Notes: generated by a model not told the origin, from the letters alone. Counted from the stretch's first letter, positions 1,441-63,813 are shown. The stretch is 64,000 bases of DNA from Candidatus Poribacteria bacterium (GCA_028824685.1 JAPPCZ010000055.1:4673-68672); one strand, 5' to 3'. Program-made: numbers and translations.

Positions 1441-2508
1441 ATGAAAATGAAAAAAACATTGACATTATTTATACTGTTCAGCTTTCTTTCCCTAAACGCT
1501 TTTGCTCAAGTCCAATTGGAAGGGACTCCAGAAGACTTATACACTTTCGCGTTAAGTCCGGATGGTGAAACACTGGCAGGTTGTAATTTCGATGGCACTA
1601 TACATTTGTGGGATACCGCCACAGGAACAGAGAAAGATGTCTTCATAAGCGAGTTCCGCATAGGTGCTAGTGGCGTTCTTACTTTTAGTCCTGATGGCAC
1701 GCTGCTTGCAAGTGGTTCTGAGCAGAGTAGGACGACTTTGTGGGATGTCGCTACCGGAAAAGCAAAATTCGTATTCGAACATGTTGATGCAAACACGATC
1801 TCAAGCATATCTTTCAGTCCAGATGGAACCACGTTGGCAAGTTGTGCTGCCGGAAGATGGGGAACCCGTTCTACGTTTGTATATTTATGGGATGTTGAGA
1901 CGGGAGAGAAGAAATCTGAAATAGAATTACCTGATTTCCCTACGTGTAGTACATATAGTCCAGATGGAACTACTTTGGCAATTGGAACTCTTGGTGAAGA
2001 CGTTTATTTATGGGATATCCACGAAAACATCGAAATAGCAAGACTTAGTACTCGTCTTTTTGATTTTGGTGTCAGGTATGTAGAGTTCAGTCCAGATGGA
2101 ACTACTTTGGCCGCTGGTGGTCATCGCAACAGACAGCTAATAACGTTGTGGGATGTTGTTACAAGAGAAGAAACAGGTCATCTATTCGGGTATTATGGTA
2201 TTGGATGGATCTACGCTTTTGCGTTTAGCCCAGACGGTATGATATTAGCAGGTCCTGGTAGGGATGGGTTTTATTTGTGGAATGTTTCCAACGAGGAAAG
2301 AAGAAAAATCTGTGAACCACCTATGTTTGCTGGGGTTAGTTCAAACGGCACAATCTATGCTGTTGAAAATCAATATGCGATAATAGATGAACACTGGGTG
2401 CCTGATGTATACTTCCTATGGACTATATCGCCTGAAAACGTTCCTATGGAAGTTGCCGCCCACGACAAGTTAACGACAAGTTGGGGGCAAATCAAGCAGG
2501 AACAATAG
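1441..2508 (+). CDS. Secreted WD40/PD40-like beta-propeller repeat protein with C-terminal KLTTSWGQIK tail
   Basis: Signal peptide MKMKKTLTLFILFSFLSLNAFAQVQ. Repeated FSPDGTxLAsg...LWDvxTG blocks typical of WD40/PD40 blades. Strong RBS aaaggagaa upstream. C-terminal tail motif shared with five other proteins in this window. Confidence 0.65.
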   Translation: MKMKKTLTLFILFSFLSLNAFAQVQLEGTPEDLYTFALSPDGETLAGCNFDGTIHLWDTATGTEKDVFISEFRIGASGVLTFSPDGTLLASGSEQSRTTLWDVATGKAKFVFEHVDANTISSISFSPDGTTLASCAAGRWGTRSTFVYLWDVETGEKKSEIELPDFPTCSTYSPDGTTLAIGTLGEDVYLWDIHENIEIARLSTRLFDFGVRYVEFSPDGTTLAAGGHRNRQLITLWDVVTREETGHLFGYYGIGWIYAFAFSPDGMILAGPGRDGFYLWNVSNEERRKICEPPMFAGVSSNGTIYAVENQYAIIDEHWVPDVYFLWTISPENVPMEVAAHDKLTTSWGQIKQEQ

Positions 2509-2630
2509 TCTGATATAGGACAGACACAATTCCTTGTGGGTGCCGTTGGGAAACCAGTGCAAGTCCATTAATATTGAACGACAACAGGTTTCCGACAAAT
2601 TTTCAAAATTTATAGAAGGACATTATCATC

Positions 2631-3260
2631 ATGTTTTTACGAAGAATCATCGAATGGATTAATTCATTGGAGGCAGGTCATCATTTCCGAAAACAGGCAT
2701 CATTTTTTGTCAAAATATCGGGCGTGTTTATTTTGATTGCCTCCTTCGTGTTAGGAATCGTCTTTTTAGTAGTCGCGCTGATGTTTACGAGAACTTCAAG
2801 CGTTGGTGCACAGGCTTTCGTCATCATTGGAACAGTTATCGGTCTTGTCATCATCGGTATCGTTGGCACAACTCTAACGATGCTGTTTTGGAATAGAGCC
2901 AAAAAAATCGTATCAGCTGGTGAAGAATCCCATCTCATATTTGGTCCTATTGCTGGGATCGTCATCCGTCTTTCTGGCGAAGCCGCCTTCATCGGGTTCA
3001 TCGGGGGCGGACTTCTATGCCTTGTTTGTTCAATCTTCGGTGCCGCCGCGTTCGGATGGCTCGCCCTCATTTCGCTCGTTTTTGCTTTCCTCTTGCCGCT
3101 CATAGCAGTAGTAAGTTTGCAATTTTCTTATCTCATCTCGGAATACGCCAGTTTGATCGGGGATATCGCAACGAATATCAAGAAGATAGAGACAGCCTTG
3201 TCAACCGATGCAACTGCTGCCCCAACATCCGAAACGGTAGCATCAGAAAAAGATTTATAA
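2631..3260 (+). CDS. Hypothetical integral membrane protein (several predicted TM helices)
   Basis: 209-aa ORF with long hydrophobic stretches (VFILIASFVLGIVFLVVALMF, VIIGTVIGLVIIGIVGTTL, LALISLVFAFLLPLIAVV). No recognisable family. Confidence 0.4.
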   Translation: MFLRRIIEWINSLEAGHHFRKQASFFVKISGVFILIASFVLGIVFLVVALMFTRTSSVGAQAFVIIGTVIGLVIIGIVGTTLTMLFWNRAKKIVSAGEESHLIFGPIAGIVIRLSGEAAFIGFIGGGLLCLVCSIFGAAAFGWLALISLVFAFLLPLIAVVSLQFSYLISEYASLIGDIATNIKKIETALSTDATAAPTSETVASEKDL

Positions 3261-3323
3261 AAAAGTAAAGCACTCGCGTATACCGCTGGACAAATGTATT
3301 GAAATCAAAAGGAGACAATTTTT

Positions 3324-4439
3324 ATGAAATCTCATGTCAATCTATTTTTCCTTATATATTTTGGTATCGCATCCGTTTTTCTCATAAATATAATTGGCTG
3401 TGATACAGAAGATGAAATAGAGGAAACCCCAATCAAGTTTGTTGAGGCGACTCCCGTAGACGGTAGCACTATCCAAACAAATTCGCAGATAATCGTCACC
3501 TTCGACGGTACTCCGATAGACCTAAGCGTAACAGGAGCGGAATTTTCAGTTTCCGATACCAATGTAACAATAATTGGTCCGTTTACCCCTGGCACGTTAA
3601 AACTTGAACTCGCGTGGTCAGATGGTGAGATAACACTTACCTATACAGTTGAAATTCCGCCGCCTCCCAAAGATATGGTGCTTATCCCCGCAGGCGAATT
3701 TGAGATGGGGCATCACCACAATGAGGAGGATCCGAGAATAAATGATCTTTTCTCCTCTGCACGTCCTGTTCACACCGTTTATGTTGATGCTTTTTACATG
3801 GACAAATATGAGGTGACAATGGCACAATTTGTTGAGTTCCTCAATGCTGTGGGGAAACCTGCACACGCTGGACACTTATTGATAAATGAACATAGCGTAG
3901 CACACTTACTTGATGATGGTGCCTACCGTATCGTCGATGGGGCAGAAAATTTTGCTATGGGGGGTGTGACGTGGTACGGCGCGATGGCTTACGCAATATG
4001 GGCAGGGAAACGTTTGCCAACGGAAGCCGAATGGGAGAAAGCCGCACGCGGAGGTTTGGAAGGTTTACGCTATCCATGGGGCAACGACTATGATACCAAT
4101 TATGTAGATAACCGGATATCATCAGTTATTGGAGAATTCCCACCGAATGGTTACGGGTTATATGATATGGTTGGTAATGTGCAAGAGTGGTGTCTGGACG
4201 AGTACGATTCAAACTTCTATGCAAATTCTCCGACCCATAATCCGTTAGCTGGTGATGTCAGTGTGACGTGGTTAATAGATAATTTTACAGAAATCTACAC
4301 GCATCGCGTCTTGCGAGGCGGATCCGGTTGGGGCCATGTAAAATACTGGCAAACGGTTTCCCATCGATACGGAGGATTGCCTCCTACCCATACTGATCCT
4401 GTTAACGGTTTTCGTTGTGTGAAGGAAATATCGCCTTAA
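3324..4439 (+). CDS. Formylglycine-generating enzyme (FGE/SUMF1) sulfatase-modifying domain protein with N-terminal Ig-like domain
   Basis: RBS aaaggagac. Signal peptide or lipoprotein-like N-terminus. FGE-sulfatase hallmarks: MVLIPAGEFEMG, VYVDAFYMDKYEVT, GVTWYGAMAYAIWAGKRLPTEAEWEKAARGG, NGYGLYDMVGNVQEWCLDEY, RVLRGGSW-like RGGSGWG. Confidence 0.8.
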   Translation: MKSHVNLFFLIYFGIASVFLINIIGCDTEDEIEETPIKFVEATPVDGSTIQTNSQIIVTFDGTPIDLSVTGAEFSVSDTNVTIIGPFTPGTLKLELAWSDGEITLTYTVEIPPPPKDMVLIPAGEFEMGHHHNEEDPRINDLFSSARPVHTVYVDAFYMDKYEVTMAQFVEFLNAVGKPAHAGHLLINEHSVAHLLDDGAYRIVDGAENFAMGGVTWYGAMAYAIWAGKRLPTEAEWEKAARGGLEGLRYPWGNDYDTNYVDNRISSVIGEFPPNGYGLYDMVGNVQEWCLDEYDSNFYANSPTHNPLAGDVSVTWLIDNFTEIYTHRVLRGGSGWGHVKYWQTVSHRYGGLPPTHTDPVNGFRCVKEISP

Positions 4440-11067: not shown

Positions 11068-11082
11068 CCAGCACTAACACCA

Positions 11083-24869: not shown

Positions 24870-25904
24870 ATGACACATTTTATCTCAAATTCCCAGAGAA
24901 TATTGTGTTTAAGTCTTTTTCTTTTGTGTAGTATTTTCATAGTAAATCCTGTTCCTGCAGAAGAAATAATCTATGCATCATTAAATCCTCAGAATAGAAA
25001 AATTGAGATACGAATTAGCGATGTCAATGGGAACAATGCTCGCAAATTGTTTAGCCCACCGGTTCTTGTCCAAGAGATTTCAATACTAAAGGGCGACAGA
25101 TACATCCTATGTGTTGGTGAGGGTGTAGGAAATGAAACTGGATTTGATGCATATCTTTTTGACACTGAACAATTGAATTATGGCATGAAAGATTTAACCT
25201 ATGGACGGTTTAGTTTTATTTTAGACGCAGCGATTTCATCTAACGGAGATATTGTATTTGCAAATTCTATCTATTTTGAATATTCTGATGGTATCTATTT
25301 TATACCAAATGACGAGATTCATGAACCAATTCCAAAGGCGGAAAAACTTTTTGATGGACCCGCAGGGTATGTAGACTGGTCTCCAAATGGGAAAGATGTT
25401 GTGTTTTCTAATAAGGAGGGGATTTTTCTTCTTGATACTTTTACAAAAGAGGTGACACAGATACTTGATTACGGGTTACGTCCTGCTTTCTCACCCGATG
25501 GAACAAAGTTAGCATTTTATGTTTATACACCAAAAGAAAATAATCAAAAATGGGTTTGGGAAGTCGGCGTAATCTCTCTTCAGGATCCACAAAATGTGAA
25601 GGTTTTTGAAAAGACAAAGACCGACCTATTTCTAAAATATCTCACGTGGACACCGGATGGAAAGTCAATTGCTTATGCATTAGTTAATGACAAACTGGAT
25701 AAGCAAAGAGGTGTTTGGGAATATTTAAATTTCGCTGTGTCGGTTGAAGATGGAAAAATACGACCTATTTTTGAAGATATTGAAGGAGGCATCCGAGTTT
25801 GGGAATGGACAAAAGAATCATTTCCACTTATACCTGTGGCGAAGTTGACTACGACATGGGGCAAATTAAAACGTGATACAGGCAACGGAGGTCAAAATGA
25901 ATAG
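24870..25904 (+). CDS. Secreted PD40/WD40-like beta-propeller protein with C-terminal KLTTTWGKLK tail
   Basis: Start set at MTHFISN (RBS ggag 7 nt upstream; the track ORF begins at 24789). Signal peptide. TolB/PD40-like repeats (DWSPNGKDVVFSNKEGIFLLD, FSPDGTKLAFYV, WTPDGKSIAYAL). Conserved tail. Confidence 0.55.
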   Translation: MTHFISNSQRILCLSLFLLCSIFIVNPVPAEEIIYASLNPQNRKIEIRISDVNGNNARKLFSPPVLVQEISILKGDRYILCVGEGVGNETGFDAYLFDTEQLNYGMKDLTYGRFSFILDAAISSNGDIVFANSIYFEYSDGIYFIPNDEIHEPIPKAEKLFDGPAGYVDWSPNGKDVVFSNKEGIFLLDTFTKEVTQILDYGLRPAFSPDGTKLAFYVYTPKENNQKWVWEVGVISLQDPQNVKVFEKTKTDLFLKYLTWTPDGKSIAYALVNDKLDKQRGVWEYLNFAVSVEDGKIRPIFEDIEGGIRVWEWTKESFPLIPVAKLTTTWGKLKRDTGNGGQNE

Positions 25905-26925
25905 GATATTTCAAATCTACGGCCGTCTATGTCTTTTCTGCATTGGTTTGTTTTTCGTGCTAACACCTGTTTGCGCTGCTCCGACAGGTGAATTCATTTT
26001 TGTACATCCAGTATCACGGAGTGAAATTTGGATTTCCAACGCGGAAGGCACAACAGCGCGTAAACTATTTCGCCAGGCGTTTTCTGATATTGATAAAATT
26101 GAAGTTCAGGAAAATGGAAATTATGTGCTTGTTGTTGCCGGCAAAGCGATATTTGAAGGTAATAATATTCAAGTATTTTCTGGTTTTGAACTATTTTTGT
26201 TGGATCAACAACACCCTGGTAGAAAGGCAAAGAACCTTACACTTGGGAGAATTACAGATTTCGTAGATGCAGATATTTCGAAAAACGGTGATGTCGCCTT
26301 TATAAGGCGTCCTGGGATAAGACTTATTCGAAACGAAGAACTTGCCAAACCTGAACCCAAAATTGAACTCCTCTTTGATGCTATGATGGAGTGGAATTCG
26401 AATTTATTTGATATAGAATGGTCCCCTGATGGAAAACACATTGCTTTTACTACACATGACGGGTTATATCTTTTAGATGTTGGAACAAAGGACGTCTTTC
26501 GTATAACTGAAAAAGATGCATATAACCCCGTTTTTTCACCCAATGGAAAACAGATTGCTTATAGTACCGTTCTTGCCCGAAATGGCAAGTTGTGGACAAC
26601 GGCTATTGCAGTCATCTCCGTGCAACCCGATGCAAAACCGGAAATTGTGCACACAAAAAAGGATTATGTCTATGACGTTGATTCTTGGTCGCCTGATGGA
26701 AAGTTCATTGCATATAGATCTTATACACACAAGGAACTCGTAAACATTGAAATATTCCGCACACTTGGTAACTTTGTTATTCCAGCGACAGGCGGTGAAC
26801 CTGAACCTATTCTGATTACTATGAAGGACACAGTGCTTTCGCTGGATTGGGATAATAAAACCTACCCCGTTGAACCTGCTGATTCTCTTGTAACAACGTG
26901 GGGGAAATTGAAGGCACAAAAATAG
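25897..26925 (+). CDS. Secreted PD40/WD40-like beta-propeller protein (paralog of the previous gene) with C-terminal LVTTWGKLKAQK tail
   Basis: Start at MNRIF with the RBS ggagg; overlaps the previous stop (ATGAATAG). Signal peptide. Repeats WSPDGKHIAFTTHDGLYLLD, FSPNGKQIAYST, WSPDGKFIAYRS. Conserved tail. Confidence 0.55.
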   Translation: MNRIFQIYGRLCLFCIGLFFVLTPVCAAPTGEFIFVHPVSRSEIWISNAEGTTARKLFRQAFSDIDKIEVQENGNYVLVVAGKAIFEGNNIQVFSGFELFLLDQQHPGRKAKNLTLGRITDFVDADISKNGDVAFIRRPGIRLIRNEELAKPEPKIELLFDAMMEWNSNLFDIEWSPDGKHIAFTTHDGLYLLDVGTKDVFRITEKDAYNPVFSPNGKQIAYSTVLARNGKLWTTAIAVISVQPDAKPEIVHTKKDYVYDVDSWSPDGKFIAYRSYTHKELVNIEIFRTLGNFVIPATGGEPEPILITMKDTVLSLDWDNKTYPVEPADSLVTTWGKLKAQK

Positions 26926-34297: not shown

Positions 34298-35488
34298 TTG
34301 AAAGAAAATATGAAAACTCAAAAAATTTTGATCCTATTCTTTGCGATTGTTGTTGCTGTAGTGCTTTTAATGTTTTCAACGTGGCATCAATGGAGCGACA
34401 ATCAAAAAACGACAAAGGAACGGTTGAGACCGGTTCCTCCAATTGCTGAGTTTAATCATGGTACTTCAATAAGTGATGTTGCTTTTTCTTCCACGAATCC
34501 GGAACTATTTGCAAGTGCTGGAGCAGGGAACACTGTAAAAATTTGGAACGTAAACAATCAAGATAGTCCTCAAATAACGCTGGAAGTTCAGGAAGACAAT
34601 GATGGTTCTACCAACCTGAACGGTATAGCTTTTTCACCAACAGATAAATGGTTAGCCAGTAAAACTTTCCGAACACTTGAATTTTGGGATGTTTCATCAG
34701 GTAGGAAAATTGACTTTATGAAGATTCCAGCATCTACATTCGCTATTTCTCCTGAAGGACGTTATCTTGCAACAGCGGCAAGAGAATTGAAATTGTGGGA
34801 TATTAGTAATCCAAAAGACATTAAAGGATTAGTTTTATTACCGCCAGAGATAGGTTGGAAGCCTCTATCTCTGGAAGAGATAAGTGTACCCGGTCCTACT
34901 TCTGATCCGCTAACAAAATATCACATGTTACCTAATAAATACCATCATGCAACAGACAACCAGTTTTATGATTCAATTGATTTTTCAAATAACGGCAAAT
35001 GGCTTGCAGCTGGAGGAGATGTAGATGACAAAATCAAGAAAAAAAGGATTGGTATAATAAAAGTTTGGGATTTACGAAGTAAACAACTTATCAAGCTAAT
35101 AAAGAGGGACAGAAAAGTTGCAGAAGGTGCTAAACCTAAAGAATTTATCAATAGTATCCGTGCCATCAATTTCTCGCCAGACAACCGTTTTTTTGCTGTC
35201 GCGGCTAACAATGGGTTAACTATATGGTCTCTACCTGAATGGAATATCTATCATGAAGTACTGGATCAACGCATAAGAGATATAGCGTTTTCACCAGATG
35301 GCACGATGTATGCAGTTGCAGATGTCAAGGGAATCACCCTCTGGTCAGTGGAAAATATTACCCCTATTGCTTTGCTAAGAGGAAAAGGTCTTTTTGCCAG
35401 TGTTTCAATAATTGCGTTTTCTGCAGATGGCAGCATGATTGCTGGTGGGAATTACGATGGTGTTCTTCGTCTCTGGGATTTGAGGTAA
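34298..35488 (+). CDS. N-terminally membrane-anchored WD40 beta-propeller protein, array copy 1
   Basis: N-terminal TM anchor (KILILFFAIVVAVVLLMFSTW), then the conserved linker RPVPPIAEFNHG and WD40-like blades (GNTVKIWNVNN, LEFWDVSSG, LKLWDISNP, IKVWDLRSKQLIK, LTIWSLPEWNIYHE, ITLWSVEN, GVLRLWDLR). Confidence 0.65.
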   Translation: MKENMKTQKILILFFAIVVAVVLLMFSTWHQWSDNQKTTKERLRPVPPIAEFNHGTSISDVAFSSTNPELFASAGAGNTVKIWNVNNQDSPQITLEVQEDNDGSTNLNGIAFSPTDKWLASKTFRTLEFWDVSSGRKIDFMKIPASTFAISPEGRYLATAARELKLWDISNPKDIKGLVLLPPEIGWKPLSLEEISVPGPTSDPLTKYHMLPNKYHHATDNQFYDSIDFSNNGKWLAAGGDVDDKIKKKRIGIIKVWDLRSKQLIKLIKRDRKVAEGAKPKEFINSIRAINFSPDNRFFAVAANNGLTIWSLPEWNIYHEVLDQRIRDIAFSPDGTMYAVADVKGITLWSVENITPIALLRGKGLFASVSIIAFSADGSMIAGGNYDGVLRLWDLR

Positions 35489-35492
35489 TTAA

Positions 35493-36668
35493 ATGAACGG
35501 TAAAAAAATCTTTCTGTTGTTCTTAGCTATTATAGTTGCTGGTGTTCTGTTAGCGTCTTCAACTTGGCGGCAGTGGAACGACAATCAAAAGACTCTTTTG
35601 GAACGAACAGGACCGATTCTACCTATTGCAGAATTTAATCATGGTGCCATGGTTGATGACGTTGAATTTTCTCCATCAAATCAAGATATCATTGCAAGTG
35701 TAGGTGATGACAATAACATAAAAATTTGGAACACAAACAACCCAAGTACCCTTACGAAAACCCTGCATGATAATGAAGAAACTCTCGTCTCATTAGATTT
35801 TCTAAACAACGGAGAATTGCTTTTATGTAAAGGGCTGCATAGGAAGATGATATTATGTGATGCATCTTCATGGGAAAGAATAATTTTACCTCAGGAACAG
35901 TACTGTTGGGATGCTGAAATTTCACCATCTGCGGATTACCTTGCGAACGTCTATTCGCAACGATTAGAGTTGTGGGACATTCGGAATCCAAATGAGATCA
36001 CTGAGATAACCGAAATAACAGAGATTCATCATACTAAATATGCCAATTCCATGCGATGTGCTGACTTTTCACCTAACGGAAAATGGCTTGCCATTGGATT
36101 TGAAAACGGTGACATAAAATTTTGGGATTTAGAACAAAAGCAATTTATCAAGACGCTATCCGTTCCACATGAAAGTCACGAGCACTTGAAAGATATAATC
36201 TTTTCGCCTGATGGACGTTGGATTGCCGCTGCTGAACATAGCAGTTTGTCATTATGGGATGTTCAGCAAAGTCGACGTGTAAAGTTATTGGAGGATACCT
36301 ACATAGGTTTTCTCCGAGATGTAAAGTTTTCTCCTGATGGAAGATATATCGGCATAAAAACCCAGGATAAAATGAACAGATATACTATATGGAGTTTACC
36401 AGAAGTGCAAATCTACCATGAGGGGAGTGGTCGATACGTCACTGATCTTGCATTTTCGCCTGATGGGAAGATTCTTGCAATTTCAGATGCTGGTGAGGTA
36501 ACTCTTTTATCTATTGAAAATCTTACACCTATTGCCCTGCTGCAAGGTAAAGGCTTTTTAGGTGGAGCTATGGAACTTTCATTTTCACAAGATGGTAGTA
36601 TGCTTGCAGGTGGAGGTTATGGTGGTGTTCTTCGTCTCTGGGATATAGGGAAACTAAATGAACGGTAA
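35493..36668 (+). CDS. N-terminally membrane-anchored WD40 beta-propeller protein, array copy 2
   Basis: MNGKKIFLLFLAIIVAGVLLASSTWRQWNDNQKTLLERTGPILPIAEFNHG (identical to copy 3 over about 50 aa). Blades end in GVLRLWDIGKLNER. The 3' end overlaps the next start (ctaAATGAACGGTAA). Confidence 0.65.
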   Translation: MNGKKIFLLFLAIIVAGVLLASSTWRQWNDNQKTLLERTGPILPIAEFNHGAMVDDVEFSPSNQDIIASVGDDNNIKIWNTNNPSTLTKTLHDNEETLVSLDFLNNGELLLCKGLHRKMILCDASSWERIILPQEQYCWDAEISPSADYLANVYSQRLELWDIRNPNEITEITEITEIHHTKYANSMRCADFSPNGKWLAIGFENGDIKFWDLEQKQFIKTLSVPHESHEHLKDIIFSPDGRWIAAAEHSSLSLWDVQQSRRVKLLEDTYIGFLRDVKFSPDGRYIGIKTQDKMNRYTIWSLPEVQIYHEGSGRYVTDLAFSPDGKILAISDAGEVTLLSIENLTPIALLQGKGFLGGAMELSFSQDGSMLAGGGYGGVLRLWDIGKLNER

Positions 36669-37836
36669 AAAAATCTTTCTGTTGTTTTTAGCGATTATAG
36701 TTGCTGGAGTTCTGTTAGCGTCTTCAACTTGGCGGCAGTGGAACGACAATCAAAAGACTCTTTTGGAACGAACAGGACCGATTCTACCTATTGCAGAATT
36801 TAATCATGGTGTCCGGATCCATGCTATTGCTTTTTCACCAAGAAATCCTAACCTCATTGTTACTACGGGTGAAGACTACACCATAAAAGTTTGGGATAGG
36901 CACAACACACAAGCACCAGAAGTTGTATTGACCGGTATGCTTGCGCATGATGGTAGTGGGGACACTTATTCTGTTGAATGTATATCGTTTTCACCAACAG
37001 GTGAATGGCTTATAAGAAAAATAAATTGGATGCTGGAATTCTGGGATGTGTCTTCAAAAAAGAAATTGAATTCTTTTGATATCGGTCCTTCAAATGCAGC
37101 TATTTCTCCTGCCAATCACTTACTCGCAACTGCCTTTAACGATGTAAGACTATGGAATATCAGCAACCCAAATGAAATAATAGGAATGTTTGTGTTACCA
37201 CCACTGATAGGCGAACAAGCATTATCACACGAAGATGTGAGATTGTCTAAACATCATCACACTGATCTTGCAGTTAAACATCACAATGAGACGCTTAACC
37301 AAAATTATCGTATGGTTGATATCTCAAATGATGGAAAGTGGGTAGCCGCAGGAGGAGGTATATATGACAAAACGATCAGAAGATACTTTGATAAGGTAAA
37401 AGTCTGGAACTTACAAAGCAAGCAACTTGTTAAGATTATAGAGAGAAAGATACCGGATGACCGTAGACCTGGAGAATATCGTCAAGATATTCAATTTATT
37501 TGTTTTTCCCTTGACAACCGTTTTTTTGCCGTCGCAGGTGAGAGTGAATTGACTATTTGGTCTTTGCCTGAGTGGAATATCTATCACAAATTACCATGTC
37601 AACACATCAGCGATATGGCGTTTTCGCCAAGTGGAAAGATATTTGCCATTGTAGATGTGAAGGGAATAACCCTCTGGTCAGTAGACAATATGACCTCAAT
37701 TGCATTACTTAAGAGAAAAAGTCTTTGGGACAGTGTTACGAAAATTGCGTTTTCACCTGAGGGTAACATGCTCGCGGGTACTGAATATGATGGAATTCTG
37801 AGTCTTTGGGATTTGAGGGAACTAAATGAACGGTAA
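36658..37836 (+). CDS. N-terminally membrane-anchored WD40 beta-propeller protein, array copy 3
   Basis: Same N-terminal 50 aa as copy 2. Blades (TIKVWDRHN, LEFWDVSSK, VRLWNISNP, VKVWNLQSKQLVK, LTIWSLPEWNIYHK, ITLWSVDN, GILSLWDLRELNER). Overlaps the next gene's start. Confidence 0.65.
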   Translation: MNGKKIFLLFLAIIVAGVLLASSTWRQWNDNQKTLLERTGPILPIAEFNHGVRIHAIAFSPRNPNLIVTTGEDYTIKVWDRHNTQAPEVVLTGMLAHDGSGDTYSVECISFSPTGEWLIRKINWMLEFWDVSSKKKLNSFDIGPSNAAISPANHLLATAFNDVRLWNISNPNEIIGMFVLPPLIGEQALSHEDVRLSKHHHTDLAVKHHNETLNQNYRMVDISNDGKWVAAGGGIYDKTIRRYFDKVKVWNLQSKQLVKIIERKIPDDRRPGEYRQDIQFICFSLDNRFFAVAGESELTIWSLPEWNIYHKLPCQHISDMAFSPSGKIFAIVDVKGITLWSVDNMTSIALLKRKSLWDSVTKIAFSPEGNMLAGTEYDGILSLWDLRELNER

Positions 37837-39046
37837 AAAAGTGATCTTGTTGTTTTTAGCGATTATAGTTGCTGGAGTTCTCTTAGCATTTTCTACATGG
37901 CGGCACTGGAACAACAATCAAAAAACGATACTCGAAAGAATGAGGCCGATTCCTCCAATTGCTGAGTTCAATCATGGTAGCTCAATAAGAAGTATTGCTT
38001 TTTCTCCCAAGAATCCAGACCATATTGCAAGTGCAGGAGAGGGGAATAAAGTAAAGGTATGGAACATAAACAACACAAAATTACCTGAAAAGGTGCTGAT
38101 AGCTCACCCTCCCAAAGAAGGTGGTATTCCTTTATTTGTAAATTTCATCACTTTTTCGCCTACAGGGAAATGGTTTGTCAGTAATTGCATTCGGAAGTTT
38201 TCATTTTGGGATATCTCCTCATGGAAGGAAATTAATTCTATAGAGATACCCGCAGGAGATTTAGTTATTTCTCCAAAGGGCACATATTTTGCATCAGCAT
38301 CTAACGATGTAAAATTGCTGAAAATTAGTGATCCAAATAAAGTGTGCGAAATTATCTTATTACCACCTAAGATCGGCTGGGAATCTGTTGCACTGGAAGA
38401 TTTAAATATAGCAAATTCTAAATCTGAAAGAACCATAATTAAAAATCAAAATACCATTACAAAATATAGAAATGCATCGTTGACTCAACAATATAAAGCA
38501 ATTGACTTTTCACATGATGGAAAATGGATCGCTGCTGCTGGACAGATGTATGATTTTACCAGTGAAAAATGGACCCACAAAATAAAAATATGGGATTTAC
38601 ATCGGAAACAGCTATTTAAGATTATTGAGAGATATATTACCGAAAAACCCCAAACCAAGAATGACACAAATCGATTATATCAGCCTTTTTACTCCAGTGA
38701 TATTCGATCAATTAAGTTTTCTCCTGATAATCGTTTTTTTGCTGTTGGGGCTCGGAATGGGTTGACGATATGGTCTATACCAGAGTGGAATATTTACCAC
38801 GAAATCTTGCATCAACAAATATGGGATATCGCCTTTTCACCAGATAGTACGATGTATGCAGTTACAAATGTTAAAGGGATAACCCTATGGTCGGTAGAAA
38901 CTCTCACGCCTATCGTGCTGCTTACGGGATCGGGTTTATACGGTAATAGCCTAATTGAGTTTTCACCCGATGGCAGTACGCTTGCTGGCGGCGGCATGGA
39001 TGGGGTTGTCCGACTTTGGGATGTGAGGAATATAAATGAAAAATAA
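37826..39046 (+). CDS. N-terminally membrane-anchored WD40 beta-propeller protein, array copy 4
   Basis: MNGKKVILLFLAIIVAGVLLAFSTWRHWNNNQKTILERMRPIPPIAEFNHG. Blades (KVKVWNINN, FSFWDISSW, IKIWDLHRKQLFK, LTIWSIPEWNIYHE, ITLWSVETL, GVVRLWDVRNINEK). Confidence 0.65.
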   Translation: MNGKKVILLFLAIIVAGVLLAFSTWRHWNNNQKTILERMRPIPPIAEFNHGSSIRSIAFSPKNPDHIASAGEGNKVKVWNINNTKLPEKVLIAHPPKEGGIPLFVNFITFSPTGKWFVSNCIRKFSFWDISSWKEINSIEIPAGDLVISPKGTYFASASNDVKLLKISDPNKVCEIILLPPKIGWESVALEDLNIANSKSERTIIKNQNTITKYRNASLTQQYKAIDFSHDGKWIAAAGQMYDFTSEKWTHKIKIWDLHRKQLFKIIERYITEKPQTKNDTNRLYQPFYSSDIRSIKFSPDNRFFAVGARNGLTIWSIPEWNIYHEILHQQIWDIAFSPDSTMYAVTNVKGITLWSVETLTPIVLLTGSGLYGNSLIEFSPDGSTLAGGGMDGVVRLWDVRNINEK

Positions 39047-41060
39047 AAACATCTTACTTCTATCAGTAATCTTGATTATAGCAGTTGTCGGTGTTGTATT
39101 GTATTTCATTTTACGTCTGCCGCCGCAGGAATTGTTCCCACAGATATTCGCGCAGCTACCTGAAAAACCGAAACTCATAGCGGAATTCAATCATGGTGCA
39201 ACGCTTGATTCTGACGCGATTCCTTTTGAGGGTTTTACTCTCACAGACGCTACACCAATTTATTCTGTCGCCTTCTCCCCGATAGATGCTTCTCTCATAG
39301 CAAGCGTTAATGCAAACGGTTCCATAAAGTTATGGAACATAAACAACACCAAAGAACCTGTAAAAATTCTTAGACATCCTGGTGTATATCCAATCATCCG
39401 TTTTTCTCCCACAGGTGAACTGCTTGCAAGTGCGGGTTATGGAAAACTGGTATTTTGGGATGTTGCTTCTGGAACAAAGCTTAATTCACTTGAAGCAGCT
39501 GGTGGAGATTTTGCTCTTTCCCCGAATGGTCAACTCGCGACAACCCCGGATGATGTGAAACTCTGGGATATTCGGAATCCAAAGGAGATAAAAGAAGTAG
39601 CGACACTACCGTTCGACGAAGAGCATAAAATCAGAAGTTGGGCATGTGCAGTAGCTATCTCAACAGATGGTAAATTGATTGCCGCTGGATACGCCAATGG
39701 TTATGTGAATGTTTGGAATCTACAGACCAAACAGCATGTGAAAACTTTAAAAACACCCTTTATAGAAATGAGATATTTAAAGTTTTCAACTAATCGCAAA
39801 TACTTGGTCAGTGGAGGTAATGAATGGAAACATAGCGGCCCGAGAGGTTACGTTATGTGGGAATTACTAAGTTGGCAACGTCACGGCGAAGTGCAACGTG
39901 GACACATCGAAAATTTGGCGTTCTCACCAGACGGAAAGATATGTGCAAGTGCCAATCATCAGTCCTATTCTGGAAGAGGGGTAGAACTCTGGACAGTTAA
40001 GAGCGGTGCACCAATTACTGTATTACCAACTGCAAGGGATGTATCGTTTTCGCAAGATGGGAAAAGGATCGCAAGCGGTAACGATGATGGCATTGTCCAA
40101 TTATGGGAACTTACGTCTCAGCAATTAGCGTTAGCCTCTATCCCCACCGACATGGTGCGGTTAATTTATGTCCCGTCAGAAGATGAAGAACCTCCGCCAG
40201 ACATTACAGTAAAATTAGATAAATCAATAAGAGAGGCACAAGACTTCTACGCGGATGAGATGGAACGACACGGTTTCGGCAGAAAAACTTTTACGTTTGA
40301 AACTGATGAGAATGGAAAAGCCAAGATATATCATGGTAAATACAATCAAACCAATATCGATCTGTCAAACGACATCTGGCTAATAATTGGAGGAGATGAA
40401 TCACAGATTTTCCCGTCAGATCCGACATCACTCTATATTGATCATTATGATACATTCTCTTATACTCGTAATGACGGATATTCCACTAAAAACAATGTAT
40501 GGAGAGAGAAAATAAAAGGAATCATCAAGGCAACACATGTTCAGGCATCCGTTAAATTCCTTGATCGGAAATCTGTTGCGTATGCTCTTAGAAGTGCTTT
40601 TAGTGTGCCTGGTATCCACACAGAGCCTGAGCCAAACGCTTTAAAACGTCTTTTCTCCCGTGTTAACGACAAGATGCCTTGGGGAAAAAGATGGGCAAAA
40701 CTGTCCAGATGTGAGGCTGAATGGTTAGATAAAAGCCGCTACTTTAACCCAAACCAACCTTTTTTTGATAAAGCACCAAAGATGGAGATGCGTGTATCCG
40801 TTCCTAAAGATAACGGTCTGCGGCACTTCATATTTGATGTTGCAGATGAAGATGGTATGCACCATGCACAACTGTTTGTAATTCAAAGGTGGAAATTGAA
40901 GTTTCATAATTGCCAAGCTCTAAACGGTAAACAAGAAGCAACCATTGCATTTGAAATCACAGATGCGAAAATAAAGACGGTTAAACTTCGGATGATTGAT
41001 ATGCATGGAAACATCGCAGCACGTGATTTCCAAATTCAGGAAAAAACAGATGAAAAATAA
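39036..41060 (+). CDS. N-terminally membrane-anchored WD40 beta-propeller protein with additional about 270-aa C-terminal domain of unknown function, array copy 5
   Basis: MKNKNILLLSVILIIAVVGVVLYF anchor. PEKPKLIAEFNHG linker. Blades (SIKLWNINN, LVFWDVASG, VKLWDIRNP, VNVWNLQTKQHVK, GIVQLWELTSQQ). C-terminal domain VRLIYVPSEDEEPPPDITVKLDKSIREAQDFYADEMERHGFGRKTFTFETDENGKAKIYHGKY ... PWGKRWAKLSRCEAEWLDKSRYFNPNQPFFDK ... MIDMHGNIAARDF. Confidence 0.65.
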   Translation: MKNKNILLLSVILIIAVVGVVLYFILRLPPQELFPQIFAQLPEKPKLIAEFNHGATLDSDAIPFEGFTLTDATPIYSVAFSPIDASLIASVNANGSIKLWNINNTKEPVKILRHPGVYPIIRFSPTGELLASAGYGKLVFWDVASGTKLNSLEAAGGDFALSPNGQLATTPDDVKLWDIRNPKEIKEVATLPFDEEHKIRSWACAVAISTDGKLIAAGYANGYVNVWNLQTKQHVKTLKTPFIEMRYLKFSTNRKYLVSGGNEWKHSGPRGYVMWELLSWQRHGEVQRGHIENLAFSPDGKICASANHQSYSGRGVELWTVKSGAPITVLPTARDVSFSQDGKRIASGNDDGIVQLWELTSQQLALASIPTDMVRLIYVPSEDEEPPPDITVKLDKSIREAQDFYADEMERHGFGRKTFTFETDENGKAKIYHGKYNQTNIDLSNDIWLIIGGDESQIFPSDPTSLYIDHYDTFSYTRNDGYSTKNNVWREKIKGIIKATHVQASVKFLDRKSVAYALRSAFSVPGIHTEPEPNALKRLFSRVNDKMPWGKRWAKLSRCEAEWLDKSRYFNPNQPFFDKAPKMEMRVSVPKDNGLRHFIFDVADEDGMHHAQLFVIQRWKLKFHNCQALNGKQEATIAFEITDAKIKTVKLRMIDMHGNIAARDFQIQEKTDEK

Positions 41061-42879
41061 AAAAATATTACTCTTTTTTTTAATTTTGGCAGTAGCAGTT
41101 GTTGGGATTGTAGTATATTTCATCTCACGTCCGCCGCAGCATCAGGAATTGCTCCCACAGACATTCGCGCAGCTGCCTGAAAAACCGAAACTCATAGATG
41201 AATTCCATCATGGACTCTGGGTTTATTCCGTAGCAATTTCACCTACTGATCCATCCCTTGTTGCGGGTGTAGATCAAGATGGCACTATAAAGCTATGGAA
41301 CAGAAACGACACAAAGAAAATATTCAAATTCTTCAGACATCCTGAAAAAATTCCGTCCATTGGTTTCTCACCCATAGGTAAATTGCTTGCGTGTGCTGGC
41401 TATGGAACACTTACAATATGGGATGTTGTTTCAGGAACAAAGATCAATTCACTTGAGACATCATACCGTCAATTCGCTTTTTCGCCAGATGGGCAAAAAC
41501 TGGTGACAATTCGGGATAACAGAAAAGGAATACATGAACCAGGAGTGAAAATCTGGGATATCCGGAATCCTAAGAAAATAACGGAAATTGCTATCATCAA
41601 TATACCACATGCAACCAAAGGTTCGACATGCGCGATTGACATTTCGCCCGATGATAAATGGATCGCTGCCGGATATTCTAACGGAACTATACACGTATGG
41701 GATTTAAGTACCAAACAACTTGTCAAAACATTAGAAACATCTTTTTATCAGATGGATTATTTAAAGTTTTCCCCTAACAACAAATATATGGTCGCTGGTG
41801 GACGTGATCAGGAGGGGTATATCAATTATTCTGTGAAGTGGTTCATCATGTGGGAATTGCTAAGTTGGCAACGTTTGGGTGAGGTGCTTCGAGGAAATGT
41901 TGAAAATATGGTGTTCTCCCCAGATGGGAAGATATGCGTGGGGGCAAATGATTGGTCTCATCACGGACGGGGTGTTGAAATCTGGTCAACTACGAATGGT
42001 GAGCCAATTTCTTCATTACCAACGGAGGCAACGGATGTTTCATTTTCACATGATGGCAACCTTCTCGCCACTGGAGGCAAGGATGGTTTTGTTCGAGTGT
42101 GGGAGCTTACGCAATCGCAATTAAATTTAGACAAAGTCCGCAACGATGTCGTGCGATTAATTTACTACTTACCGAAAGATAAAGAACCCTCCCCAAACAT
42201 TACACAAAAAATAGATAAAACTATAAGAAAGGTTCAAAAGCACTACGCAGATGAGATGGAACGACACGGTTTCGGCAGAAAAACTTTTACTTTTGAAACC
42301 GATGAGAATGGAAAAGCCAAGATATATCACATGAAAGAAATACCGATCGGAGCACATGATTTGCAGTTGAACGATATCTGGCTTGTTTTTGTTGATTATG
42401 AGAACGATATTCAGTCAGTTCTTATTGATAACATGTTAAGACAGTTCAAATCAGCTGGGCGCAATTATCATCATTATGATAATACATTCACATTCCCTAC
42501 AAGGAGGAAGGGGGTTTTTAAAGACAAAATTGGGATGTATGATATTAAGGGATTCACAGGAGATGGCAGTTTTGTCTATGCTAAAAAGAAGGGCATTGAT
42601 TGGAAATTAATAGTATACTCACTTAAGCATAAATTTGACGTATTACATCGGAGACATCATTTACCTAAGTATGAACCTAACGTAGTTAAAAGGGTTTTCA
42701 AGGGTATTAACAGTATTATGCCATGGGGCAAGAGTTGGGTGAAATTGTCTAAGTGTGAAGCAGAATGGTTGGATAAGAGTCGTTTCTTCAACCCAAACCA
42801 ACCTTTCTTTGACAAACGACCAGATATTGAAATAAGCATAATAAAAACTGATATTGGTTCAAAAAAAAATTCCAGTTAA
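41050..42879 (+). CDS. N-terminally membrane-anchored WD40 beta-propeller protein with C-terminal extra domain, array copy 6 (reading frame interrupted at an A9 tract; the C-terminal 84 codons continue in another frame to 43130)
   Basis: Start at MKNKKILLFF (overlaps the copy 5 stop; the track ORF begins at 40996). Paralog of copy 5 throughout (same ADEMERHGFGRKTFTFETDENGKAKIYH block; PWGKSWVKLSKCEAEWLDKSRFFNPNQPFFDK). The frame breaks at the A9 run at 42861-42869. Confidence 0.6.
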   Translation: MKNKKILLFFLILAVAVVGIVVYFISRPPQHQELLPQTFAQLPEKPKLIDEFHHGLWVYSVAISPTDPSLVAGVDQDGTIKLWNRNDTKKIFKFFRHPEKIPSIGFSPIGKLLACAGYGTLTIWDVVSGTKINSLETSYRQFAFSPDGQKLVTIRDNRKGIHEPGVKIWDIRNPKKITEIAIINIPHATKGSTCAIDISPDDKWIAAGYSNGTIHVWDLSTKQLVKTLETSFYQMDYLKFSPNNKYMVAGGRDQEGYINYSVKWFIMWELLSWQRLGEVLRGNVENMVFSPDGKICVGANDWSHHGRGVEIWSTTNGEPISSLPTEATDVSFSHDGNLLATGGKDGFVRVWELTQSQLNLDKVRNDVVRLIYYLPKDKEPSPNITQKIDKTIRKVQKHYADEMERHGFGRKTFTFETDENGKAKIYHMKEIPIGAHDLQLNDIWLVFVDYENDIQSVLIDNMLRQFKSAGRNYHHYDNTFTFPTRRKGVFKDKIGMYDIKGFTGDGSFVYAKKKGIDWKLIVYSLKHKFDVLHRRHHLPKYEPNVVKRVFKGINSIMPWGKSWVKLSKCEAEWLDKSRFFNPNQPFFDKRPDIEISIIKTDIGSKKNSS

Positions 42880-53547: not shown

Positions 53548-53568
53548 AACCAACAAAGGAAACATATC

Positions 53569-62631: not shown

Positions 62632-63007
62632 TACCACTTCTGAGTGAAAACCTCTCATTTACAAAAAACGCGTTTAATGTGAATGTCGGACGCACATTCA
62701 CCAAGCGCAATTCATTACGCCTCTTTAAATTCTCACTGCACGATGACCATGCCAATTACCTTTGGCACATATTTAAGATCAATGATTCACACATATTTTC
62801 AATTTACGATCCTACCAATTTTCAGAGTCACTCTGAAATAACCTCTACCTTAAACCTCCCATAAACCTATACCCGGACTAAGTTTTTCTCTACTTCTTGA
62901 TTTATTGCTTTTTCTCATTTACTCTAAAAACTCTAAAATTTTCTATCTCTCCTATCCATAAAATTCTAAACAATTTCTCATTTTAATTCCCACCAACCCA
63001 AAAAACA

Positions 63008-63016
63008 TGGTATAAT
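63008..63016 (+). promoter_or_regulatory. Candidate extended -10 promoter element TGgTATAAT upstream of the LamG gene
   Basis: Perfect TATAAT preceded by TG, 54 bp upstream of the start codon at 63070; the RBS aaaggagaa follows. Confidence 0.35.
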
Positions 63017-63069
63017 ATTAATGCATCCCACGATATAAACCGAAATTCACTTTACAAAGGAGAATCACA

Positions 63070-63813
63070 ATGCCAAAAGTTACTTTTGTGTTGTTACTAT
63101 GCTCACTAATTATCACGAGTCTAAGTATAGCTTATGCGGTTGAGGACGGACTTGTCGCGTACTGGCCATTTAACGAGGGTGCTGGCAAAACGGCAGTAGA
63201 TGTTACCGGCAATGGACATGACGGTAAATTTGAAGGAGCACCCAAATGGGTTGATGGAAAATTTGGCACTGCACTCGAATTTGACGGTGCAGGTGACCAT
63301 GTTGTAGTTGCCGATGACGGTGCATTAGACCTAACAGAAAATATCACACTGATGGCATGGTTTAGTCCAAACGATGTCCTAACAAGTCGCCGTTTGATGG
63401 TAAAAAACGACTCCATATTCGTCATTTTTGACTTTGGAAATAAAAACAGCATTGATTTCCTCGTAAAACCAAACAACACCCATGCCGAATCTACAACAAC
63501 AGATTGGAAAGTTGGCGAATGGTATCATTTCGCAGGGACGTTTGATGGGAAGACGATGAAGGTATACATAAACGGTAAATTAGAAGGTGAAAAAGCGAAT
63601 GATGTTCCAATAGCGCCATCCGATTTAGAATTATGGATCGGTGGTGATGATTATGGTCGTCCAACTGACTGGTTTCCCGGTAAAATCGATGAAGTTCGGC
63701 TTTATGATAAAGCTTTGAGCGAGGCACAAATTCAAAAAACTATGAATACACCGCAGGACGTGCAAGCACGTGGCAAACTTACCACAACGTGGGCAAAAAT
63801 CAAAGGTTTATAA
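63070..63813 (+). CDS. Secreted LamG/concanavalin-like domain protein with C-terminal KLTTTWAKIKGL tail
   Basis: Signal peptide MPKVTFVLLLCSLIITSLSIAYA. LVAYWPFNEGAGKTAVDVTGNGHDGKFEGAPKWVDGKFGTALEFDGAGDHVVVAD is the classic LamG_3 signature. Conserved tail. Confidence 0.65.
   Translation: MPKVTFVLLLCSLIITSLSIAYAVEDGLVAYWPFNEGAGKTAVDVTGNGHDGKFEGAPKWVDGKFGTALEFDGAGDHVVVADDGALDLTENITLMAWFSPNDVLTSRRLMVKNDSIFVIFDFGNKNSIDFLVKPNNTHAESTTTDWKVGEWYHFAGTFDGKTMKVYINGKLEGEKANDVPIAPSDLELWIGGDDYGRPTDWFPGKIDEVRLYDKALSEAQIQKTMNTPQDVQARGKLTTTWAKIKGL

What the first reader, a model, noticed from the sequence alone, without database searches (positions are those of the whole stretch)
1441..63813. Six unrelated secreted proteins share a conserved C-terminal tail K-L-[TA]-T-x-W-[GA]-x-[ILM]-K, a candidate undescribed modular sorting or processing tag
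The motif ends the proteins at 1441-2508 (HDKLTTSWGQIKQEQ), 24870-25904 (VAKLTTTWGKLKRDTGNGGQNE), 25897-26925 (DSLVTTWGKLKAQK), 32138-32902 (QGKLATQWGALKAK), 32994-33764 (RGKLATRWAKMKRK) and 63070-63813 (RGKLTTTWAKIKGL). The carriers belong to two unrelated folds, LamG jelly-roll and PD40/WD40 beta-propeller. All six have N-terminal signal peptides, and three share an FAQVQ cleavage region. The tail always lies within about 20 residues of the C-terminus and is not followed by a TM helix, unlike PEP-CTERM, LPXTG or GlyGly-CTERM. It is also distinct from the T9SS CTD seen on 3-1364. A short tag shared by unrelated secreted cargo is what a dedicated sorting, attachment or processing system produces, and I cannot match it to any named family from memory.
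Basis: seen in the sequence. Interest (0 to 1): 0.85.

Follow-up and report, generated by a model that had tools for sequence, protein, structure and literature searches.

The report
Poribacteria-specific C-terminal tag on secreted proteins
A 17-residue unstructured tail (L-A-V-E-P-x-G-K-L-T-T-T-W-G-K-L-K) ends many small secreted binding proteins in the sponge-symbiont phylum Poribacteria and matches no described sorting signal, so it is probably a new address or docking tag whose reader is still unknown.

Summary
The motif occurs six times in the six-frame translation of the window, each time 2-10 residues before a stop codon; shuffles predict 0.19 matches. Two carriers are on the minus strand. 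The window comes from a Candidatus Poribacteria sponge symbiont.

A position-blind DNA scan of 185,579 species genomes returned 115 loci from 82 MAGs. All are Poribacteria, or unnamed bins that mostly look like Poribacteria. In 123 of 124 hits the stop codon follows within 1-10 codons.

The motif is about 17 residues long: L-A-V-E-[PA]-x-[GDN]-K-L-[TA]-T-T-W-[GA]-x-[LI]-K. Conservation is at the protein level only. About 96% of 166 carriers have signal-peptide-like N-termini, and most are 200-360 aa single binding modules (LamG 62%, DUF1080, CBM9, Kelch, PD40/WD40, YWTD, discoidin, ankyrin). AlphaFold leaves the tail detached and low-confidence on both a LamG and a WD40 cargo.

Nothing in Pfam, NCBIfam, the PDB or the paper library matches it. 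It lacks the TM helix of sortase-type signals and the folded domain of the T9SS CTD.

Best reading: an undescribed post-Sec recognition tag read in trans. Function and partner are inferred, not shown. The only leads are weak neighbourhood links to DUF6785 and PorU/PorV-like genes.

The parts
1441..2508 (+). Carrier t1: signal peptide + WD40 beta-propeller + tail (tail segment 2446-2508, ...MEVAAHDKLTTSWGQIKQEQ*)
   Evidence: Translation. Pfam WD40. AF2 models the propeller at pTM 0.76, and residues 335-355 have pLDDT about 25 with no secondary structure.
24870..25904 (+). Carrier t2: signal peptide + PD40 propeller + tail (tail segment 25821-25904, ...PLIPVAKLTTTWGKLKRDTGNGGQNE*). It has the longest post-motif extension, 10 aa, and overlaps t3 by 8 nt.
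   Evidence: The public gene call gives the same 344-aa product.
25897..26925 (+). Carrier t3: signal peptide + PD40 propeller + tail (tail segment 26863-26925, ...YPVEPADSLVTTWGKLKAQK*)
32138..32902 (-). Carrier t4 (minus strand): signal peptide + LamG + tail (tail segment 32138-32197, ...TPVEPQGKLATQWGALKAK*)
32994..33764 (-). Carrier t5 (minus strand): signal peptide + LamG + tail (tail segment 32994-33053, ...LPVEPRGKLATRWAKMKRK*)
63070..63813 (+). Carrier t6: signal peptide + LamG + tail (tail segment 63754-63813, ...QDVQARGKLTTTWAKIKGL*). It is a conserved orthologue across Poribacteria.
   Evidence: 120 listed orthologues at 70-99% identity. In AF2 the LamG fold is confident to residue 226, and residues 230-247 have pLDDT about 43.
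3..1364 (+). Contrast, not a carrier: the C-terminal part of a 1410-aa protein with LamG + dockerin + T9SS-type CTD. It shows the same cargo fold using a different, known C-terminal module.
   Evidence: TIGR04183 scores 32 bits against a cut-off of 23; Dockerin_1 and Laminin_G_3 also match.
34298..42879 (+). Contrast, not carriers: six tandem WD40 paralogues with an N-terminal signal-anchor helix and no tail.
29925..31841 (+). Weak candidate associate: a DUF6785+DUF6784 polytopic membrane protein 0.3 kb from t4.
   Evidence: The association is not established.

Best explanation
The tail is a phylum-specific, intrinsically unstructured C-terminal linear recognition motif. It spans about 17 residues, followed by 1-10 variable and often basic residues. 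It is appended to small Sec-exported binding modules.

Proposed mechanism (inferred): after export and signal-peptide removal, the folded lectin-like or propeller module carries a free, flexible tail. A conserved Poribacteria envelope component reads that tail in trans.

In effect the tail is a constant handle on a variable set of ligand-binding heads.

Shown: the motif, its obligate C-terminal position, its link to signal peptides, its modularity across folds, its structural detachment, protein-level selection, restriction to one phylum, and the absence of any matching known model.

Inferred: that it is read in trans, and that the outcome is sorting or tethering. The reader protein is unknown.
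For: 1. Position. 123 of 124 position-blind DNA-pattern hits have a stop 1-10 codons after the last Lys. 177 of 179 loose-motif hits behave the same way. Nearly all of the 150 best hits among 1.84 billion cluster representatives end at the protein's C-terminus.

2. Export. 96% of 166 carriers have a signal-peptide-like N-terminus, against 38% of control ORFs scored by the same procedure. Only 11 of 166 have a lipobox-like pattern. In the window, lipoproteins, a TonB-dependent receptor and signal-anchored WD40 proteins all lack the tail.

3. Modularity. Among 150 carriers: Laminin_G_3 93, 3keto-disac_hyd 9, CBM9 6, Kelch 5, PD40 5, Ldl_recept_b 2, F5/8-C 2, Ank 1, plus families with no Pfam hit. 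WD40 and LamG cargo also occur with a T9SS-type CTD or an N-terminal anchor instead of the tail.

4. Not part of the fold. AF2 gives pLDDT about 43 on LamG and about 25 on WD40 for the tail, while the domains themselves are confident.

5. Selection acts on the peptide, not the DNA. Synonymous sites vary and nothing is conserved after the stop codon. Positions outside the search pattern are still 90-95% conserved.

6. Near-invariance of K, L, T, W and K across paralogues and across 82 MAGs fits one common protein reader better than generic physicochemistry.

7. Phylum restriction. All 115 loci are Poribacteria or unnamed bins. Three of the five unnamed bins have flanking genes 75-97% identical to named Poribacteria loci. 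There were 0 hits in 2.9 million viral contigs.
Against: - No partner has been identified. Neighbour census finds no family in more than about 10-15% of carrier loci.
- There is no evidence of cleavage, modification or localisation.
- Cargo is dominated by one superfamily (LamG/ConA-like), so part of the spread is paralogous expansion rather than independent acquisition.
- Signal peptides were called heuristically.
- Two unnamed MAGs (L034; L082/L123) have only 25-38% identity to named Poribacteria loci.
Confidence: 0.5

Rival explanations
1. The tail is a minimal cargo signal for the type-IX-like PorU/PorV sorting module that Poribacteria encode. PorV-like protein would bind it, and the PorU-like C25 peptidase would cleave it and attach the cargo to a surface glycolipid.
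For: - Poribacteria loci encode a PorU-like protein (NF033707, E = 1e-109, 367 bits).
- They also encode PorV/PorQ-family proteins (122.6 bits against a cut-off of 90).
- PorV-like ORFs lie in 6 carrier-seeded loci, and PorU-like ORFs sit beside PorV in L047 and L059.
- The tail and the T9SS-type CTD are alternative C-terminal modules on the same cargo folds.
Against: - Known T9SS signals are folded 70-100 aa Ig-like domains. The tail is about 17 aa and unstructured.
- The tail matches no T9SS model.
- PorU/PorV are already accounted for by the bona fide CTD proteins in the same genomes.
- The PorU-like hit is below its curated cut-off.
- The SprA translocon and PorKLMN were not looked for.
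- The adjacency has no baseline.
Confidence: 0.15
2. The tail binds the envelope directly. A short cationic, Trp-containing amphipathic peptide would anchor the module to a membrane leaflet, LPS or another anionic polymer, with no protein receptor.
For: - Three conserved Lys plus Trp and Leu.
- AF2 draws a low-confidence helix at residues 236-246.
- L, W and L fall on one helical face.
- Residues after the motif are enriched in R and K.
- Conservation periodicity is slightly stronger at 100-120 degrees than at 160-180 degrees.
Against: - Hydrophobic moment is only 0.2-0.55, and mean hydrophobicity is about 0.
- Ten residues is short for stable binding.
- Invariant Thr and a small residue after Trp, together with the conserved upstream L-A-V-E-P, point to stereospecific recognition. 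Generic amphipathic anchors drift in sequence.
- On WD40 the tail is modelled as coil.
Confidence: 0.1
3. The tail is a sequon for a periplasmic post-translational modification, for example O-glycosylation of the Thr run or modification of the Trp. The enzyme could be a polytopic membrane protein such as DUF6785.
For: - An invariant T-T-(T)-W core on a flexible, accessible peptide.
- DUF6785 paralogues lie near carriers in about 12 of 116 carrier-seeded regions. They sit next to different carrier families.
- In L126, two DUF6785 genes flank three carriers.
Against: - The reciprocal test is weak. Only 1 of 4 DUF6785-seeded contexts with DNA has carriers.
- DUF6785 is not Poribacteria-specific; there is a 48% identical Deltaproteobacteria hit.
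- Its fold and function are unknown, with no PDB, Pfam or literature link.
- A sequon need not be C-terminal.
Confidence: 0.08
4. The tail has no tag function. It is just the inherited C-terminal end of an expanded paralogous family, spread by duplication and occasional recombination, or it is a C-terminal stability or degradation determinant.
For: - 62% of carriers are LamG.
- Many carriers sit in tandem arrays.
Against: - It is present on at least 9 unrelated Pfam families, including propellers and an ankyrin protein.
- It is detached from the fold.
- It is far more conserved than the adjacent domain (mean column identity 11% across 150 carriers against more than 90% in the tail).
- It is strictly coupled to signal peptides.
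Confidence: 0.07

Closest known systems
T9SS C-terminal domain (type A, TIGR04183/PF18962; type B, TIGR04131)
   Same: It is C-terminal and sits on Sec-exported cargo with N-terminal signal peptides. It has no TM helix, is carried by diverse cargo and is lineage-restricted. It occurs in the same genomes and on the same cargo folds (WD40, LamG, PD40).
   Different: The CTD is a folded Ig-like beta-sandwich of about 70-100 aa. The tail is about 17 aa, unstructured in AF2 and matches no CTD model. In the sequence examined, CTD cargo is large and multidomain (778-1738 aa), whereas tail cargo is 200-360 aa with a single domain.
Tripartite sortase-type C-terminal signals (LPXTG, PEP-CTERM, GlyGly-CTERM, MYXO-CTERM, PGF-CTERM)
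   Same: It is a short signature motif at the extreme C-terminus of signal-peptide-bearing proteins. It has many carriers per genome, a lineage-specific distribution, and often basic residues at the very end.
   Different: The defining TM helix after the motif is absent; only 1-10 residues follow. No NCBIfam CTERM model matches, and no sortase, exosortase or rhombosortase link was found. The tripartite architecture is as described in PMC11980579 and 10.1101/2023.06.07.544157.
Dockerin-cohesin docking
   Same: It works like it conceptually: a constant C-terminal handle on variable secreted modules that could dock to a common partner. Poribacteria also have dockerins (window 3-1364).
   Different: Dockerin is a folded Ca-binding module of about 60-70 aa (PF00404), usually on enzymes. 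The tail is a linear peptide on non-catalytic binding modules, and no cohesin-like receptor is known.
Eukaryotic C-terminal short linear motifs (KDEL, PTS1 -SKL, KKXX)
   Same: It works like them: a short, unstructured address label that must lie near the C-terminus, is read by a receptor and is independent of the cargo fold.
   Different: There is no sequence relationship. The tail's conserved part is not at the very last residues; 1-10 variable residues follow. A K-x-K-x-x resemblance holds for only a minority of carriers (spacing 2 in 26 of 124).

Membership tests
T9SS type A CTD (TIGR04183 / PF18962) | C-terminal match to the CTD HMM | tested here: not met
   None of the six carriers, and no tail-only peptide, matches at E <= 10. 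The positive control 3-1364 matches at 32 bits against a cut-off of 23.
T9SS type A CTD (TIGR04183 / PF18962) | Folded Ig-like beta-sandwich of about 70-100 aa | tested here: not met
   The region after the cargo domain is about 20-25 aa, with pLDDT about 43 (LamG) and about 25 (WD40) and no beta-sandwich.
T9SS type A CTD (TIGR04183 / PF18962) | T9SS machinery in the same organism | tested here: inconclusive
   PorU-like (367 bits, below the 420 cut-off) and PorV/PorQ-family (122.6 against a cut-off of 90) genes are present in Poribacteria loci. SprA/Sov and PorKLMN were not searched. Kamke 2014 (PMC3909097) reported none in single-cell genomes.
Tripartite sortase-type C-terminal signals (LPXTG, PEP-CTERM, GlyGly-CTERM, MYXO-CTERM, PGF-CTERM) | Hydrophobic transmembrane helix following the signature motif | tested here: not met
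   Only 1-10 residues follow the motif, rich in R, S, G and K.
Tripartite sortase-type C-terminal signals (LPXTG, PEP-CTERM, GlyGly-CTERM, MYXO-CTERM, PGF-CTERM) | Match to a curated CTERM model | tested here: not met
   NCBIfam release 20 at E <= 10 gives no tail-covering hit for full proteins or tail peptides.
Tripartite sortase-type C-terminal signals (LPXTG, PEP-CTERM, GlyGly-CTERM, MYXO-CTERM, PGF-CTERM) | Co-occurring dedicated sorting enzyme (sortase, exosortase, rhombosortase, myxosortase) | not testable with these tools
   This needs whole-genome phylogenetic profiling. None was seen among recurrent neighbours.
Dockerin (PF00404) | Match to the dockerin HMM / duplicated Ca-binding loop | tested here: not met
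   There is no Dockerin_1 hit on any carrier. The hit on 3-1364 serves as a positive control.
Outer-membrane protein beta-signal | Terminal aromatic residue closing a beta-barrel | tested here: not met
   The last residue is R or K in 73 of 166 carriers, and F in 12 of 166. The cargo is made of soluble jelly-rolls and propellers.
Amphipathic-helix membrane anchor | High helical hydrophobic moment with a hydrophobic face long enough to bind a leaflet | tested here: inconclusive
   muH is 0.21-0.55, mean hydrophobicity is about 0, and the core is 10 residues. AF2 gives a low-confidence helix on LamG and coil on WD40.

The most novel reading that the evidence does not exclude
The tail is the cargo signal of a previously unrecognised, Poribacteria-wide post-Sec sorting or attachment pathway. 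The pathway would use a short, TM-less, unstructured C-terminal peptide and its own dedicated reader, possibly involving DUF6785 and/or the PorU/PorV-like module. It would display a large repertoire of lectin-like and eukaryote-like binding modules at the symbiont surface.
Probability: 0.25. Interest if true: 0.85.

Novelty: new variant of a known kind. Interest (0 to 1): 0.66.

Why it matters
Poribacteria are among the dominant uncultivated symbionts of marine sponges. Their secreted lectin-like and eukaryote-like proteins are the prime candidates for contact with host matrix and host cells.

- A single recognisable tag would define that secreted or displayed repertoire directly from sequence. 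That could be tens to perhaps a few hundred proteins per genome, most of them currently annotated as hypothetical.
- The tag gives a concrete handle for finding the unknown reader or machinery: a synthetic peptide, an HMM and a phylogenetic profile.
- It also bears on an open point from 2014 (PMC3909097): how CTD-bearing proteins leave poribacterial cells. PorU/PorV-like genes are present in this phylum.

Tried and rejected
- **DNA repeat or terminator element.** Rejected. Synonymous sites vary and nothing is conserved downstream of the stop.
- **Known family.** Pfam, NCBIfam (full proteins and tail peptides, E <= 10), a PDB profile search and a literature string search were all negative.
- **The search for homologous proteins with a tail profile.** It returned only 30-88 aa proteins, apparently because candidates are length-limited. 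This was useful for the consensus but not for cargo.
- **Search with full-length LamGc.** It gave only close Poribacteria orthologues, so there was no comparison outside the phylum.
- **TafC 'fimbrial' hit of t6.** This is just the LamG domain of a haloarchaeal Tat-fimbria protein.
- **'VEP' as a degenerate PEP-CTERM.** Rejected. There is no TM helix and no model match.
- **Di-lysine KxKxx mimicry.** The spacing fits only a minority of carriers, and free-living lineages also carry the tail.
- **Dedicated neighbour gene.** The census shows only abundant Poribacteria families (methyltransferase, PBP1C, GFO/IDH/MocA, PhyH, TPR, FG-GAP).
- **DUF6785 as partner.** The reciprocal test was mostly negative. 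No fold or function clue was found.
- **Phage carriage.** There were 0 hits in viral contigs.
- **The listing of cluster members.** It added no taxonomic information beyond Poribacteria.

Full report
**1. Observation**

Those at 32138-32902 and 32994-33764 are on the minus strand.

- A regex for the core motif matches exactly six times in the six-frame translation of the 64-kb window.
- Each match is 2-10 residues before a stop, at the end of an ORF of 247-355 aa.
- 300 dinucleotide-preserving shuffles give 0.19 matches per window.
- A looser regex adds one chance hit in a 13-codon ORF at 28339-28380.
- Pfam and NCBIfam confirm three LamG, two PD40 and one WD40 cargo, and a T9SS-type CTD plus dockerin on 3-1364. 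No model covers the tail.
- Tail-only peptides hit nothing in NCBIfam at E <= 10.

**2. Not a DNA element**

Alignment of the six tail-coding regions with their downstream flanks shows codon-level conservation only. Synonymous positions differ freely, and nothing is conserved after the stop codon. Selection therefore acts on the peptide.

**3. Source and distribution**

The window lies on a 94.8-kb contig from a sponge metagenome (ENA ERZ23496516, ROBB21-1_SAMN13943212 scaffold_249). It is nearly identical to Candidatus Poribacteria MAG RHO2_bin_17 (L069).

I back-translated K-L-T-T-T-W-[GA]-K-[ILM]-K into a DNA pattern of about 41 bits, for which less than one chance hit is expected. I scanned 185,579 species-representative genomes with it.

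- By their titles these come from 82 MAGs (my count): 77 named Poribacteria and 5 titled only 'uncultured bacterium'.
- Three of those five have flanking genes 75-97% identical to named Poribacteria loci. Two (L034, L082) remain unresolved.
- The same pattern has 0 hits in 2.9 million viral contigs.
- A 31-position tail profile searched against 1.84 billion cluster representatives finds 411 proteins at E <= 1e-3.
- The only organism name any source gives for a carrier is Candidatus Poribacteria.

**4. Anatomy of the tag**

The 124 DNA-pattern hits were found without any constraint on position.

- 123 have a stop 1-10 codons after the final Lys (mode 3). One has 23, and none has 0.
- The median open frame upstream is 256 codons.

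In 55 carriers that were not seeded by the strict pattern, the conserved positions relative to the Trp are as follows:

| Position | Residue and frequency |
|---|---|
| -12 | L/T/F |
| -11 | A 53% |
| -10 | V 95% |
| -9 | E 71% |
| -8 | P/A 92% |
| -6 | G/D/N 91% |
| -5 | K 89% |
| -4 | L 91% |
| -3 | A/T 87% |
| -2 | T 91% |
| -1 | T 65% |
| 0 | W 100% (required by the regex used to select carriers) |
| +1 | G/A 95% |
| +3 | L/I 91% |
| +4 | K 98% |

Positions -7 and +2 are variable. More divergent tails also exist, for example KAATVWGRIK, KLAATWAKLK and QYQQWGKIK.

**5. Carriers**

I extracted 166 complete carriers from the window and the loci.

- 96% have a strongly hydrophobic, signal-peptide-like N-terminus. 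The figure is 38% for control ORFs of at least 200 aa scored by the same procedure.
- Only 11 have a lipobox-like pattern.
- 142 are 200-299 aa and 20 are 300-399 aa.
- A Pfam census of 150 carriers gives: Laminin_G_3 93, 3keto-disac_hyd/DUF1080 9, Pentaxin 9, CBM9 6, Kelch 5, PD40 5, Ldl_recept_b 2, F5/8 type C 2, ankyrin 1. There are also several families without any Pfam hit.
- The cargo is therefore small and mostly single-domain: non-catalytic binding modules of at least nine families, dominated by ConA-like jelly-rolls.
- Foldseek places LamGc next to carbohydrate- or ligand-binding jelly-rolls: AbnA domain 4, the clostridial neurotoxin Hc lectin-like domain, PTX3 and the trans-sialidase lectin domain.

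Within the window, several exported proteins lack the tail:

- lipoproteins;
- a TonB-dependent receptor ending in ...NRF;
- six tandem WD40 proteins with an N-terminal signal anchor.

WD40 and LamG cargo also occur with a T9SS-type CTD instead of the tail. The same cargo folds therefore use alternative localisation devices. This is the pattern expected of an address label.

**6. Structure**

- AF2 models LamGc (37-sequence alignment) at mean pLDDT 86. The jelly-roll is confident up to the closing helix at 218-226. Residues 230-247 have pLDDT about 43 and are drawn as a detached helix.
- AF2 models the WD40 carrier at pTM 0.76, with residues 335-355 at pLDDT about 25 and as coil.
- The tail is therefore not the end of either fold.
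- Hydrophobic moments are modest (0.21-0.55) and mean hydrophobicity is about 0.

**7. Search for a reader**

Clustering 505 non-carrier ORFs from the loci shows no dominant neighbour. The recurrent families are ones common in these loci: methyltransferase, PBP1C, GFO/IDH/MocA, PhyH, TPR and FG-GAP. Two weak leads emerged.

*(a) DUF6785+DUF6784 polytopic membrane proteins.*
- They lie in about 12 of 116 carrier-seeded regions.
- They are divergent paralogues (30-43% identity) that sit next to different carrier families.
- Of four DUF6785-seeded contexts with DNA, only L126 has carriers: two DUF6785 genes flanking three carriers.
- The family also occurs outside Poribacteria.
- It has no PDB, Pfam or literature relative.

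*(b) PorU/PorV-like genes.*
- Poribacteria encode a PorU-like C25 peptidase (NF033707, E = 1e-109, below its cut-off).
- They also encode PorV/PorQ-family proteins (122.6 bits against a cut-off of 90).
- PorV-like ORFs occur in six carrier-seeded loci.
- L059 reads DUF6785 - carrier - PorV - PorU. L093 has PorV - DUF6785 followed by carriers further along the locus. L125 has DUF6785 - PKD - PorU - PorV.

None of this has a proper baseline. I treat both as hypotheses.

**8. Comparison with known systems**

- The tail fails the defining tests of the T9SS CTD: no HMM match and no folded domain.
- It fails those of tripartite sortase-type signals: no TM helix and no model match. That architecture is described in PMC11980579 and 10.1101/2023.06.07.544157.
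- It also fails those of dockerin and of the OMP beta-signal.
- It works most like a C-terminal short linear address or docking motif.
- Kamke et al. 2014 (PMC3909097) noted TIGR04183 domains on poribacterial eukaryote-like proteins and found no Por machinery. The passages I searched in that paper do not mention this tail.
- No paper in the library contains the motif string.

**9. Verdict**

The tag is Poribacteria-wide, obligately C-terminal, coupled to export, independent of cargo fold and unstructured, and I found no description of it.

That it is a sorting or docking signal read in trans is the best-supported inference (about 0.5).

I classify it as a new variant of a known kind (C-terminal protein-sorting or docking tags). 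There is about a 25% chance that it marks a genuinely new pathway.

Noticed in passing
L125:5936-11152 and 11206-12261; L093:1516-2589 (-); L059:5075-7999; L047:3-1713: Poribacteria encode adjacent PorU-like (C25 peptidase with its own T9SS-type CTD) and PorV/PorQ-family genes. They also hit NCBIfam's 'PorU2' and 'PorV2' models. A 2014 single-cell study reported no Por structural genes in this phylum.
   Followed up: partly
window 29925-31841 (+); L126:5028-6977 and 10001-11971; L059, L061, L038, L053, L093, L071, L023, L102, L117: An uncharacterised polytopic membrane family, DUF6785+DUF6784, is expanded into divergent paralogues in Poribacteria. It often sits beside tail carriers and, in three lineages, beside PorU/PorV-like genes. 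No structural, Pfam or literature relative was found.
   Followed up: partly
window 34298-42879 (+): There are six tandem WD40 paralogues, some overlapping by about 10 nt. Each has an N-terminal signal-anchor helix and no C-terminal tag, in contrast to the tailed WD40 at 1441-2508.
   Followed up: partly
window 25897-25904; L083:5403-6464 region: The two PD40 carriers overlap by 8 nt (ATGAATAG), which suggests translational coupling. In L083, an ORF whose tail resembles t2's continues 42 codons past the motif, into what looks like the next gene's signal peptide. This could be a frameshift or a fusion.
   Followed up: no
P0063 (101 aa, metagenome protein): This ORF begins with three tandem copies of a tail-like unit (ARGKLTTVWGKLTI x3). 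It is the only case seen of the motif repeated and not at a C-terminus. It could be an assembly or frame artefact.
   Followed up: no
L018, L020, L022, L063, L077, L100, L112, L120: There is a recurrent three-gene cluster of unrelated carriers: a 224-aa 'IRYEFDSDKEIA' family, a 282-aa 'ANYNFALHTDSHPW' family and a 264-aa LamG. In several of these loci it lies next to a class A PBP with a BiPBP_C domain. Two of the three families have no recognisable Pfam domain.
   Followed up: partly
window 16334-24588 and 46339-56064: These regions hold a dense set of defence and mobile genes: two Uma2 endonucleases, a DDE transposase (19666-20328), an NTP_transf_2/HEPN pair (23830-24588), a HicA toxin and a GmrSD type IV restriction enzyme (51379-53547). 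An unannotated 831-aa protein follows the GmrSD gene.
   Followed up: no
window 28339-28380 (-): A 13-codon ORF ending ...STNWSCFK matches the loosest tail regex. This is a chance hit, consistent with the shuffle expectation of 0.19.
   Followed up: yes
L034 and L082/L123 (MAGs binchicken_co97_140 and SRP119689_co1_304): Two unnamed MAGs carry canonical tails, but their flanking genes are only 25-38% identical to the named Poribacteria loci held here. They may be deep Poribacteria lineages or a neighbouring phylum.
   Followed up: partly
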